DNA of 64,000 bases from Mustelus asterias (taxonomy: Eukaryota), in contig NC_135808.1 of NCBI RefSeq assembly GCF_964213995.1, positions 24,366,001 to 24,430,000 on the forward strand. The letters are read 5' to 3'. A program made the position numbers and the translations under genes. The notes below the pieces were generated by a model, which saw only the letters and a list, made by a program, of their open reading frames with translations, searched no databases and was not told the DNA's origin. Shown piece after piece: positions 5,979 through 62,783 of this stretch. Positions within the stretch are counted from its first letter, which is position 1; each line of letters starts with the position of its first letter.

Positions 5979-6027
5979 CTGCAGACACCTCTCCACACAG
6001 AAGGATCAGCTCTATCAGTCCAATCAT
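5979..6027 (-). CDS. MHC class I copy A, exon 1 (signal peptide MIGLIELILLCGEVSA); no further exons in the window
   Basis: ATG at 6027, 49 nt, phase-1 donor CAG|GTGAGT; nearly identical to the copy B leader 25496-25544. Confidence 0.85.
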
Positions 6028-6134
6028 TGCTGCATCCTTCATATTGGAAGAAATCTTTGGAGGATACTCTTTTTCAATGAAAGGGGATCTTCTCAACTTG
6101 TTCCTTCTGTCTTTTTCTGTTCACACGAAGCCGC

Positions 6135-6551
6135 AATCTGATTAGACACAAAACAGGTTGGCAAACTTCCTCAATATTCAGAATTCTCCAATCAGGTAAA
6201 TACAACTGGTTATATTATGTTTGCTCAGCAGTTAGCACTGCTGCCTCACAGCGCCAGGGACCCAGGTTCAATTTCAGCCTTGGGTGACTGTCTGTGTGGA
6301 GTTTGTACATTCTCCCTGTGTGGGTTTCCTCCGGGTACTCCTGCTTCCTCCTGCACTCCAAAGATGTGCAGGTTAGGTGGACTGGCCAAGCTAAATTGCC
6401 CCTTACTGTCTAAAGATGTGTGTGATAGGGGATTAGCCATGGTAAATATGTAGGGTTACAGGGATGGGGCCTGGATAAAGATGCTCTGTCTGAGATTTGG
6501 TGCTGACTTGAATGGACTCATTCTATGATTCTAACATCATCAGTTGCCGGG
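6135..6551 (-). promoter_or_regulatory. Disrupted class I promoter of copy A (Y box 6188-6195; X box 6534-6551, separated by a SINE)
   Basis: Aligns to 25650-25810 of copy B. The proximal X-Y module is absent and a ~320 bp SINE lies between the distal X and Y boxes. Confidence 0.7.
6212..6532 (+). mobile_element. V-domain SINE inserted in the promoter of copy A
   Basis: GTTAGCACTGCTGCCTCACAGCGCCAGGGACCCAGGTTCAATT head, central V domain and TTCTATGATTCT tail; absent in the paralogous B promoter. Confidence 0.85.
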
Positions 6552-7454
6552 TAGAATGAGCCAAAAGGAGTTTGATACAGTGACAGAGGGAAGGACATGA
6601 AGAAGAGCAGCAGATCTGAGCTAACGTTTCAATTAGATCACTGCTGATCTCAACCCCAGCTTCTGACGATAACCCATATCCCGAAATATTATTACCCAAT
6701 AAAAATCTATCACTCTTACACTTAAAAGCTCCAATTGTTCACATTTTTTTGTGGAAAGACTGGATGTGGATTTCACACTGCTGAATCATTTTAACATGAT
6801 AAACAGATCGATCAGATCACCCCTCAACATTCTAAACTCGAGGGAATAAGTTTTTACATGCTGTCAAAATTTATACTTCATTGTGAAAAGCCGATCCCCT
6901 CAAGCACGTCTCTGCAGAGTGAATTGATCTGTTTGTCCTTTGTCAGTGCTCAGGAATTGGGGGTAATATTGTTGCATGAACAGAGGATTGGTTAATGGAC
7001 AAGAAACATTGATTTGGCATAAATGGGCCATTTTCAAGTTCGCCAACACTAGGATCAGTGCTGGGACAATCAGCCATTTACAATCTTTATTCGTGACTCA
7101 GACCAAGAGGCCAAGTGTAATGTATCTAAATTTACAGCAGCGACAAAGCTCGGTGGAAATGAGGAGAGATTGAGTCAGTTAGGATTGTGTTAGCTGGAAA
7201 TTAGAAGAATGAGGAGGATCTCATCAAAACCTATACAATTCTAACAGGAAGAGATGGGCTAGATGCGGAAGGATATTCCCGATGGCAGGGGAGTCCAGAA
7301 CCAGGGGTCCTATTCTAAGTATATGGGGAAAACCATTGAGGACTGATTATAAACATCCTGAGGATTACCATTGACCAGAAATTGAACTGAACCAGCCATA
7401 TAAACACTGTCGCCACAACAGTGGGTTAGAGGCTGGGAATTTTGTGGATAGTTT

Positions 7455-7735
7455 AAATTTTAAGTTTATGTTTTACTCTCACACATAGGTTTATATTAAT
7501 ACTGTAATGACGTTACTGTGAAAGTCCTCCAGTTGCCACACTCCAGTGTCTGTTCGGATACACTGAGGGAGAAATATAGCATGGCCAGTGCATCCAACCA
7601 GCACGTCTTTCAGACTGTGGGAGGGAACCGGAGCTCCCGGAAGAATCCCATGCAGATACGGGGAGAACGTGCAGACTCCGGACAAACAGTGACCCAAGCA
7701 AGGAATCGAAGCAGGGTCCCTGGCGTTGTGCCACC
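7455..7735 (-). mobile_element. V-domain SINE
   Basis: Reverse-complement head GCCAGGGACCCTGCTTCGATTCC and tail shared with the SINEs at 9275 and 61035. Confidence 0.8.
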
Positions 7736-8209
7736 AACCCCTGTAACTCACCTCTTATGCAAGATGCTCTTTCGGAGTGTTGGAGCAAGTGCTGCAGACG
7801 ATGGGCCGAATGGTCTCCTTCTGCACTATAGGATTGGGTTGAGACAACCAATAAAGAGAGACGGGAGGAAGGGGAAGGGGAGGGCGCGGTTGTTGATGTT
7901 CTGTGAATTCCGTGTTGAAGTTGGAAAATTCTGGCTGAACTGAGGCAGTTTGATGCTGTTGTCCGGATTGTAACCGCGGGGAGACAGACCTGGGGCAATG
8001 CCATTGGGATGATGGAAAATGAGCTGCGGGATTGACTGTTGTCGGAAAGAGAGAAAGTTAAAATGAGTTTCAAATCAAAGCAGTGACTGAAGCGGATCCC
8101 CGGCTTCTGGGTGGGAAAAATTAAACAGGGAAATTCCAGTGAAATAGAAATTAGAGTGAGTGAAAGGAAATTCAGATTGTGTCCCCAGAACTGAGAAAAT
8201 AAAATAAGT

Positions 8210-61032: not shown

Positions 61033-61308
61033 GGGGCAGCACGGTGGCTAGCACTGCTGCCTCACAGCGCCAGGGACCCATGTTCGATTCCCAGCTTGGG
61101 TCACTGTGCAGAGTCTGCACATTCTCCCCGAGTCTGCATGGGTTTCCTCCGACAGTCTGAAAGATGTGCTAGGTAGGTGCATTGACCATGCTAAATTCTC
61201 CCTCAGTGTACCCGAACAGGTGCTGGAGTGTGGTGACTGGGGGATTTTCACAGTAACTTCATTGCGGTGTTAATGTAAGCCTACTTGTGACAATAATAAA
61301 TAAGCTTA
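61033..61308 (+). mobile_element. V-domain SINE
   Basis: GGCAGCACGGTGGCTAGCACTGCTGCCTCACAGCGCCAGGGACC head, TGTTCGATTCC B box, AATAAATAA tail. Confidence 0.85.
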
Positions 61309-61608
61309 GAGCCTTATCCCTTCTGTAACATCGCATGAGATACTGATTGCTGTTACACTGCAGCGTCCCAGGATACTCTGGGCCCTGTCATGCTGTAATG
61401 TCCCACGACACACTGGAGCATTTTTGACATCAAATCCCTGGAGACACAATTACTTTCCTCGAACGGCAGCACCATGATATATAACACATTGAAGATTCAT
61501 ATTTATTTCCCCCTCTATATATCCTGCGCTGAAAGCTCAGCACTGACCCTCACTCCTGTGATCCTGGTCTGAGGCTGGGTCCTCTCTAACAGTGAGAAAC
61601 AGTCTTAC

Positions 61609-61872
61609 CGTAAATCACCACCAGTGTCTCCTTCATCCCGCTGTGTTCCATCCGACAGGAATACTCGGCCTGGTCCTCTGGATCAAACTCGACCCATTTC
61701 CGGATCTGGTAGGTGCTGTCGTGATTGGGTAAGATCCCACTGGACAGAGTCTCATCAATCACCACTCCGTCTCTCCACAGATTCACCTCGATGGCCTGAG
61801 AGTAAAACCCGGTGACGACACAGGACAGCCGGTTAGAATCACCCAGACGGGTAAAGGACACGACGGGGGCAA
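61609..61872 (-). CDS. Copy D exon 4, alpha3 Ig C1 domain
   Basis: VAPVVSFTRLGDSNRLSCVVTGFYSQAIEVNLW...YSCRMEHSGMKETLVVIY; 264 nt, in frame with exons 3 and 5. Confidence 0.93.
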
Positions 61873-61934
61873 CTGATAGAGAAAGAAAGAGGAGTCAGTA
61901 CAAGAACCTCGAGATAGAGAGTCCCGGCATCACC

Positions 61935-62513
61935 CCCTTCACCGACTCTCACTCCCCCCTCACTCAACAACTCTCACTCCCCCCCTCACTCACCGACTCT
62001 CACTCCCCCCTCACTCACCGACTCTCACTCCCCCCCTCACTCACCGACTCTCACTCCCCCCCCTCACTCACCGACTCTCACTCCCCCCCTCACTCACCAA
62101 CTCTCACTCCCCCCTAACTCAACGACTCTCACTCCCCCCCCCTCACTCACCGACTCTCAGTCCCCCCTCACTCACCGACTCTCACTCCCCCCCTCACTCA
62201 CCGACTCTCACTCCCCCCCTCACTCACCGACTCTCACTCCCCCCTCACTCACCGACTCTCACTCCCCCCTCACTCACCGACTCTCACTCCCCCCTCACTC
62301 ACCGACTCTCACTCCCCCCCTCACTCACCGACTCTCACTCCCCCCCTCACTCACTGACTCTCACTCCCCCCCTCACTCACCGACTCTCACACCCCCCCTC
62401 ACTCACCGACTCTCACTCCCCCCCTCACTCACCGACTCTCACTCCCCCCTCACTCACCGACTCTCACTCCCCCCTCTCTCACCGACTCTCACTCCCCCCT
62501 CACTCACCGACTC
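61935..62513. repeat. ~25-bp splice-donor minisatellite in intron 3 of copy D
   Basis: Same unit as 22335-24268; about 22-23 copies. Confidence 0.97.
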
Positions 62514-62783
62514 CCAGCTGTTGCTGTCCATATTCCAAGTAGATCTTCAGCCATTCAATGCACTCCTGCTCCAGGTAAAACTTCCACTGCTGATTATCCC
62601 AGGCCCTGATTTGTTGCCACCACGTCATGGTGTTCTCACCCCACGGTACCGGTGTCAGCCATACCTGCTCATCTTTATCAAATGTCATGAAATCTTGCCC
62701 GTCCCAGCCGAACTGTGAGAAGCCACTCGTCATCGAATCATCTGCCAGGTCACAGCCAGTTATCATCTGGAAGAAGTGGATCC
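62508..62783 (-). CDS. Copy D exon 3, alpha2 domain (alpha1 and leader presumably beyond the window)
   Basis: GIHFFQMITGCDL...FGWDGQDFMTF...ENTMTWW...YLEQECIEWLKIYLEYG; 276 nt open frame, CAG acceptor and GTGAGT donor. Confidence 0.95.

What the first reader, a model, noticed from the sequence alone, without database searches (positions are those of the whole stretch)
5979..62783. Birth-and-death tandem array of shark MHC class I genes, probably a nonclassical lineage
Seen: four same-orientation copies in repeating units whose shared 3' flanks start at about 10700, 38100 and 51080. One is a triple-lesion pseudogene, one a 3'-only relic, one has a damaged promoter and one is apparently intact. 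Known: shark classical UAA is generally low-copy, while several nonclassical lineages (UBA, UCA, UEA) are multigenic. Inference: this is an expanding nonclassical cluster, and it may be an undescribed sublineage.
Basis: partly seen in the sequence, partly recalled or inferred. Interest (0 to 1): 0.7.

Follow-up and report, generated by a model that had tools for sequence, protein, structure and literature searches.

The report
Shark UBA immune gene array
These are four units of a roughly fifty-copy cluster of an already named shark immune-display gene family (UBA); the copies share almost identical supporting parts, likely through DNA exchange, while one keeps an old binding groove also found in distant sharks and another has an unusually greasy groove predicted to hold a non-peptide ligand.

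Summary
Observation confirmed. Four minus-strand class I units: A (open frames, promoter deletion), B (pseudogene), C (3' relic), D (intact, 349 aa). They are not an undescribed lineage. They belong to UBA, a known multicopy nonclassical family: alpha3 groups with the nurse-shark UBA reference, and the cluster lies between C4-like and RXR-like genes, about 17 Mb from the UAA-like genes, as published. The window is part of a 3.1-Mb array with at least 49 alpha3 exons on both strands, 36 with open alpha1-alpha3; near-identical large blocks may inflate that count. Birth-and-death is only half the process: leader, alpha3 and TM are homogenised (D versus paralogs: dS 0.06 in alpha3, 0.6-1.5 in alpha1/2). 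D's groove is 78-81% identical to carpet-shark proteins. This scan already reported the array and D's twin on other windows of this genome. Not in those summaries: copy A's six-gene subgroup has 0-1 of 9 peptide anchors, the most hydrophobic UBA grooves, no X2-Y promoter module (3 of 3 checked), no tail exons (5 of 5 adequately checked) and excess groove replacements. The homogenisation pattern is known from mammals and newts. Ligands are untested.

The parts
5979..6042 (-). Copy A leader exon. Its alpha1, alpha2, alpha3 lie left of the window (C8:24362945-24359918) after a 9.0-kb intron 1; TM at C8:24353438-24353539; no tail exons within 17.4 kb
6043..6215 (-). Copy A proximal promoter with a 64-bp deletion removing the X2-like (TGACTCA) and Y-like (ATTGG) module; same state in subgroup members L017 and L021
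   Evidence: motif names recalled
10749..13557 (-). Copy B 3' module; last exon 13469-13423, 3' UTR and flank
13558..13833 (-). Junction where B lacks about 4.5 kb that in D holds the TM and first tail exon; CT-rich tracts on both sides
   Evidence: deletion between pyrimidine tracts is inference
22005..22269 (-). Copy B alpha3 exon, 265 nt, frameshifted
22336..24269 (-). Copy B intron-3 minisatellite, 25-bp unit x 76, each unit repeating the alpha2 exon end and splice donor
24261..24533 (-). Copy B alpha2 exon, open; keeps F123, T143, K146, W147, Y159, Y171
   Evidence: HLA-A2 numbering recalled
24868..25127 (-). Copy B alpha1 exon, 260 nt, frameshift plus in-frame TGA
25269..25495 (-). 63-bp intron-1 tandem repeat starting at the leader splice donor (also 5750-5978 in A)
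25496..25790 (-). Copy B promoter (ISRE-, X2-, Y- and CCAAT-like motifs) and leader exon 25559-25496
38117..43000 (-). Copy C, 3'-only relic: TM 43000-42896 (GC donor), tail exon 42357-42325, last exon 42046-42000, 3' flank
51140..54188 (-). Copy D last exon 54188-54142 and 3' flank
56532..56564 (-). Copy D first cytoplasmic exon (carries the tail tyrosine)
58838..58942 (-). Copy D transmembrane exon, 99% identical in DNA to C's
61609..61872 (-). Copy D alpha3 exon, open, 97% identical in DNA to B's
61939..62513 (-). Copy D intron-3 splice-donor minisatellite, about 22 units
62508..62783 (-). Copy D alpha2 exon, 276 nt, with a one-codon insertion shared with carpet-shark proteins P0051 and P0058; alpha1 (window 64422-64162) and leader (72087-72024) lie right of the window

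Best explanation
The window is four units of a large cluster of shark UBA nonclassical MHC class I genes that gains and loses copies, while gene conversion between neighbours likely keeps promoter, leader, alpha3 and transmembrane exons nearly identical and leaves the groove exons apart. Shown: UBA membership, at least 49 alpha3 exons, duplicated blocks, pseudogenes and relics, and conflicting histories of alpha1/2 and alpha3. Inferred: conversion tracts are centred on exons that purifying selection already keeps similar, and selection on ligand binding removes converted grooves. The proteins would be beta2-microglobulin-paired surface molecules showing non-canonical ligands to T or NK-type receptors. 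Copy D likely keeps one old, conserved ligand, as HLA-E and Qa-1 do. Copy A's subgroup likely binds a hydrophobic non-peptide ligand, and lacks the normal tail and SXY promoter control. B's subgroup, the most classical-like, is dying.
For: Family: P0042 is AAC60347, labelled Gici UBA in the PMC10751288 supplement. Array alpha3 is 74-77% identical to it and 54-58% to UAA, and sits in a 48-row group with it, apart from the UAA rows (SH-aLRT 85). Position: complement thioester genes at C8:20.3 and 21.0 Mb and a weak RXR-type hit at 26.06 Mb (E 9e-4) bracket the array (21.62-24.69 Mb); the same order is published. Proteasome subunits and UAA-like genes lie at 41.3-42.4 Mb. Homogenisation: mean dS among 16 gene types is 0.27, 0.51 and 0.077 for alpha1, alpha2, alpha3; D against 15 types 0.58, 1.47, 0.064; 48 of 50 TM hits are 97-100% identical; identity drops to background 150-300 nt outside alpha3. 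Trees: D plus two carpet-shark proteins form a clade in alpha1+2 (SH-aLRT 99.7) and one clade of own-genome genes is rejected (p-AU 0.00014); in alpha3 that trio is rejected (p-AU 0.002). D groove identity to those two is 29/37 and 30/37 against 60% and 56% elsewhere (p 0.053 and 0.007). A subgroup; A versus L017 19/87 groove replacements against 4/113 silent changes (p 7e-5), with 1 of 24 changed codons having both states in other paralogs. B subgroup: 9 of 9 copies carry a lesion.
Against: Groove dN/dS over all 16 types is 1.34 with a bootstrap range of 0.81-2.08, and a codon model does not reject omega = 1 (delta lnL 1.06); only the contrast with 0.36 outside the groove is firm. The AU-test groups were chosen after seeing the first trees, domains are only about 90 columns, all trees were 'quick', and alpha3 support for the own-genome clade is 75. 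The rejection may also draw on L026 and the A group. The D clade rests on two outside proteins, and the D versus P0051 groove contrast is borderline. Four blocks of at least 60 kb are 98.6-99.85% identical, so the copy count may be inflated. Groove positions and the nine anchors are recalled and mapped by alignment. Mean hydrophobicity is a crude ligand predictor. L017 versus L021 is only weakly significant (p 0.03).
Confidence: 0.8

Rival explanations
1. One-off exon shuffling, not recurrent conversion: an old alpha1-alpha2 cassette was moved once onto a young chassis by crossovers in the intron-1 and intron-3 tandem repeats, and the rest is recent duplication.
For: Tandem repeats border the cassette on both sides; the intron-3 minisatellite is 88-96% alike between D and its paralogs right up to the alpha2 donor.
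Against: Identity falls to 52-66% within 200-300 nt after alpha3 and rises again at TM, giving several exon-centred tracts. The edge gene L011 has a homogenised alpha3 (97%) but a leader and TM only about 65% alike.
Confidence: 0.15
2. The array size is partly an assembly artefact: both haplotypes of large blocks were laid in tandem, so the true number is nearer 25-35 than 49.
For: Blocks at 23.07 and 23.49 Mb differ at 30 of 59,569 bases; L018 and L028 at 0 of 6,667 beside a 200-N stretch.
Against: Four near-identical blocks need at least two true loci in a diploid; 16 distinct open types remain after collapsing at 97%; the window's own units differ by 13-36% in their flanks; D and its twin L045 differ by 30 substitutions per kb.
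Confidence: 0.3
3. Copy A and its subgroup are decaying pseudogenes: they lost promoter module and tail exons, and the groove drifted.
For: Loss of X2-Y module, of tail exons and the 3' module; GC donor and early stop after TM in L021, L031, L041; non-groove pN is close to pS for A versus L017 (0.027 and 0.034).
Against: 6 of 6 members keep open alpha1-alpha3 frames; replacements concentrate in the groove (A versus L017: 57% identity in groove, 94% outside, p 2e-7) and exceed the silent rate.
Confidence: 0.25
4. An expansion of classical UAA genes.
For: UBA derives from UAA (PMC12562908); B-type alpha2 keeps classical anchors and its best solved relative is nurse-shark class I 6LUP.
Against: Y59 is lost in 16 of 16 types; UAA-like genes sit 17 Mb away beside proteasome genes and group with Triakis UAA (SH-aLRT 99).
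Confidence: 0.02

Closest known systems
Elasmobranch UBA class Ib family (nurse shark AAC60347, horn shark AAC60348; cluster in PMC10751288; expanded family in PMC12562908)
   Same: alpha3 sequence group, multicopy cluster, position between C4 and RXRB, away from the class Ia region, loss of Y59, exon layout.
   Different: Scale: at least 49 alpha3 exons over 3.1 Mb, against 2 (white shark) and 3 (catshark) loci labelled MHC-Ib at this position in the supplement tables (labelled loci can merge genes). Subgroups D and A were not found described in my searches.
HLA-E / H2-Qa1 concerted evolution (PMC1403747, abstract read) and newt MHC-I conversion (PMC12863176, passages read)
   Same: alpha3 homogenised within a species by conversion while an old groove is conserved, hiding orthology.
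   Different: Here inside one nonclassical array and between shark orders; no ligand or receptor known.
Shark UEA family (multicopy class Ib; PMC10751288)
   Same: Large MHC-linked class Ib array; hydrophobic grooves (recalled from the 2021 paper, which was not readable).
   Different: Separate cluster in this genome near C8:32-33.5 Mb, alpha3 only about 50% identical, own tree clade; UEA label assigned by eye from the supplement's sequences.
Classical shark UAA (Triakis alleles, nurse shark 6LUP)
   Same: Parent lineage; same fold and exon structure.
   Different: UAA rows keep 8-9 of 9 anchors and lie beside proteasome genes; array types keep 0-8.

Membership tests
UBA | Groups with the reference Gici-UBA (AAC60347) and not with UAA, above all in alpha3 | tested here: met
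   (74-77% versus 54-58% identity; SH-aLRT 85)
UBA | Multicopy cluster flanked by C4 and RXRB | tested here: met
   against 72, 84; the RXR hit is weak (E 9e-4) and the C4 call rests on a thioester-domain profile
UBA | Located away from the class Ia region and from the UDA/UEA cluster | tested here: met
UBA | Incomplete set of classical peptide anchors | tested here: met
   0-8 of 9 in 16 types, Y59 lost in all; anchor list recalled
UBA | Low polymorphism and low or restricted expression | not testable with these tools
   no population or RNA data could be laid
UAA (classical) | Nine conserved anchors | tested here: not met
UAA (classical) | Linkage to immunoproteasome and TAP genes | tested here: not met
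   proteasome hits at C8:41.3-41.7 Mb, none at 21-25 Mb; TAP not searched
UEA | UEA-type alpha3 and position beside UDA and beta2m | tested here: not met
Lipid-binding class Ib (CD1-like function) for subgroup A | Hydrophobic groove without peptide anchors | tested here: met
   mean Kyte-Doolittle 1.1-1.3 over 37 positions, highest of all UBA and UAA rows
Lipid-binding class Ib (CD1-like function) for subgroup A | Bound lipid and deep pockets in a structure | not testable with these tools
   no ligand assay; the structure tool returns no coordinates

The most novel reading that the evidence does not exclude
One shark UBA array holds the whole transition from peptide to non-peptide presentation: a dying classical-like subgroup (B), a groove conserved since houndsharks and carpet sharks split (D) that marks an ancient invariant ligand and receptor, and a young, tailless, SXY-less subgroup (A) under positive selection that has independently become a lipid-presenting molecule.
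Probability: 0.25. Interest if true: 0.65.

Novelty: new member of a known kind. Interest (0 to 1): 0.4.

Why it matters
UBA ligands and receptors are unknown. The analysis gives two concrete targets: D, whose groove has been held while the rest of its gene was overwritten, and subgroup A, which predicts a recent switch to hydrophobic ligands. It also warns that alpha3 or whole-protein trees hide orthology among shark class Ib genes, and that UBA copy number may differ about tenfold between sharks. The family, its position and the mode of evolution are already known.

Tried and rejected
Expression: no RNA holder listed; this says nothing either way. Contigs of four runs laid on D's alpha1-alpha2 behave as DNA. 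One run carries L045's letters at 6 positions (checked), another carries D's letters over 467 bases. Contigs cannot separate alleles from paralogs, and one run may be the assembly's own source. A depth comparison of four-copy and single-copy DNA gave no result, so the block question is open. A search for more D orthologs with alpha2 found 3 candidates and none passing (weak search). The AlphaFold model of the D ortholog P0051 (pLDDT 78, pTM 0.56) matches 6LUP first, then MR1 and bird and fish class I at similar scores with rmsd near 9-10: class I fold only, no ligand information. The ESM Atlas gave no answer. The careful alpha1 tree did not finish. The omega value could not be read from the codon-model output. 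Almeida 2020 and 2021 (PMC7002201, PMC8454915) are not held; they, their supplements, Bartl 1997 and the Almeida thesis may describe UBA subgroups. UEA was my first guess from memory and was rejected. A link between subgroup A and horn-shark P0060 in the alpha1 tree (support 83, long branch) was not accepted: groove identity is 11/37.
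Full report
Observation. The window is G000:C8:24366001-24430000. Self-alignment and exon mapping confirm four minus-strand class I units and the three shared 3' flanks. Fetching the neighbouring DNA completed A and D. A: leader at 6042-5979, a 9,033-nt intron 1, open alpha1-alpha3 and TM left of the window. B: 1-nt loss and a stop in alpha1, 1-nt gain in alpha3, and no TM or first tail exon. C: TM with a GC donor, tail exons and 3' flank only. D: complete 349-aa frame (the frame break printed was my one-base boundary error, corrected). 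Flank identities of 64-87% between units exclude haplotypes of one locus.

The array. B's alpha3 found 90 matches in the genome (150 of 157 candidates scored). Of these, 44 whole matches at 89-100% and 5 frameshift-split ones give 49 alpha3 exons at C8:21.62-24.68 Mb, 27 plus and 22 minus. D's TM found 50 of 51 candidates, all in this span, 48 at 97-100%. I fetched all 49 loci: 48 have alpha1 and alpha2, and 36 have open alpha1-alpha3. At least 3 of the 36 have a broken TM (L022, L032, L024). The 36 collapse to 16 types at 97% identity. Much of the number comes from four blocks of at least 60 kb that are 98.6-99.85% identical. Haplotype duplication of some blocks is not excluded; at least two are true loci in a diploid. 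Proteins on a contig of the same length as C8 are labelled Mustelus asterias by their source.

Family. The closest named proteins are AAC60348 (horn shark) and AAC60347 (nurse shark). The supplement of PMC10751288 labels AAC60347 as UBA. In alpha3, array genes are 74-77% identical to it and 54-58% to UAA, and form a 48-row group with it and other galeomorph proteins (SH-aLRT 85). That paper says UBA is multicopy, lies apart from the class Ia region, and is flanked by c4 and rxrb; its white-shark table shows RXRB, two MHC-Ib loci, then two C4 genes. Here two thioester-domain genes lie at 20.3 and 21.0 Mb and a weak RXR-type hit at 26.06 Mb. UAA-like genes at 41.6 and 42.4 Mb lie beside proteasome subunits and group with Triakis UAA. 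UEA-like genes form a separate cluster. A review calls UBA an expanded, UAA-derived family. Membership in UBA is therefore met on every feature I could test.

How it evolves. Among the 16 types mean dS is 0.27 (alpha1), 0.51 (alpha2) and 0.077 (alpha3); for D against 15 types it is 0.58, 1.47 and 0.064, with leaders 95-100% identical in 11 comparisons. Low silent divergence cannot come from purifying selection on protein, so alpha3 DNA was exchanged recently (inference). Identity is high in promoter, leader, the intron-3 repeat, alpha3 and TM, and falls to background a few hundred bases outside. D's alpha1 and alpha2 each group with zebra-shark P0051 and epaulette-shark P0058 (SH-aLRT 99) and share a one-residue alpha2 insertion with them. 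On 34 rows, one clade of the 14 own-genome genes is rejected for alpha1+2 (p-AU 0.00014); in alpha3 those 14 are one side of a branch (support 75) and the D trio is rejected (p-AU 0.002). These groups were named after the first trees, and the 34 rows were chosen from 87-89. D's 37 groove positions are 78-81% identical to the two orthologs against 56-60% elsewhere, the reverse of or flat in D's comparisons with 15 other rows. The two shark orders split roughly 200 million years ago (recalled). Over the whole array groove dN/dS is 1.34 (0.81-2.08) against 0.36 outside; omega above 1 is not formally shown. The same pattern of alpha3 homogenisation with a conserved groove is published for HLA-E and Qa-1 and conversion enriched in alpha3 for newts.

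Subgroup A. Copy A, L017, L021, L031, L041 and L056 form a clade (three representatives, SH-aLRT 100 in alpha2). All 6 have open alpha1-alpha3. They keep 0-1 of 9 classical anchors and have the most hydrophobic grooves of all UBA and UAA rows, exceeded only by a partial UGA-like row. The promoter lacks a 64-bp X2-Y module in 3 of 3 checked. No tail exon or 3' module was found within 17-33 kb of TM in 5 of 5 adequately covered genes, while 2 of 2 controls had it; L017 was covered for only 3.7 kb. Groove replacements exceed the silent rate for A-L017 (p 7e-5), A-L021 (p 0.001) and L017-L021 (p 0.03), three non-independent pairs. I read this as a functional, re-wired offshoot that binds something hydrophobic (about 0.5) rather than decay (about 0.25); no ligand was tested.

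Prior work. I fixed my reading before consulting the scan's notes. They already report the roughly fifty-copy UBA array, the homogenised chassis and the ancient groove of D's twin on other windows of this genome. None of the summaries shown for a query on tailless, hydrophobic or promoter-deleted UBA names subgroup A. Six paper searches returned no description of UBA subgroups or of this species' MHC, but the two Almeida papers, Bartl 1997 and the thesis were not readable, so absence from print is not shown. Seen: PMC10751288 passages, section 9 and supplement parts 5, 10, 97; PMC12562908 and PMC12863176 passages; PMC1403747 abstract and outline. Recalled, from no call: groove position list, the nine anchors, promoter motif names, divergence time.

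Verdict. A real and accurately described feature, and a new member of a known kind: the UBA cluster, unusually large in this assembly. Birth-and-death plus exon-centred conversion explains it. The residual interest lies in the conserved D groove and the hydrophobic, tailless A subgroup as targets for ligand work. Interest 0.4.

Noticed in passing
window 22336-24269 and 61939-62513; intron 3 of array genes: Intron 3 is a minisatellite made of the alpha2 exon end plus its splice donor. Intron length runs from 75 to 6163 nt across 48 genes, and the repeat is absent in the five L027-type genes.
   Followed up: partly
L019, L024, L025, L029, L034, L035, L039, L048-L050, L054: Subgroup with cysteines at both F-pocket positions 95 and 147; a new disulfide is possible but untested. 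Also noted in e1-9348345.
   Followed up: no
B, L020, L022, L030, L032, L040, L042, L047, L055: The subgroup with the most classical anchors (7-8 of 9) is broken in 9 of 9 copies, by several independent lesions.
   Followed up: partly
L011 with L081 and L089 (C8:21.61-21.63 Mb): Edge gene of the array: alpha3 homogenised, but leader, promoter and TM only about 65% like the rest.
   Followed up: partly
L004 and L006 (C8:41.59 and 42.40 Mb), L065 (43.4 Mb): Two UAA-like genes with identical alpha3: one has a frameshift in alpha1, the other a very divergent alpha1 type also seen in L065, Chiloscyllium and Heterodontus rows.
   Followed up: no
L070 (C8:3.66 Mb) and L063, L068 (39.7-40.1 Mb): UEA-like class I exons far from the main 32-33.5 Mb cluster.
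   Followed up: no
L026/L027, L036/L037, L051/L052: Head-to-head gene pairs with leaders 3.3-6.3 kb apart, repeated in three blocks; a shared promoter region is possible.
   Followed up: no
window 56992-58693 and 42455-42568: A second 25-bp minisatellite in intron 5: 68 units in D, 4.6 in C.
   Followed up: no
window 28420-29793, 16769-18145, 1-1074: LINE-type reverse-transcriptase fragments and many tRNA-type SINE copies fill the spacers (class names recalled, not searched).
   Followed up: no
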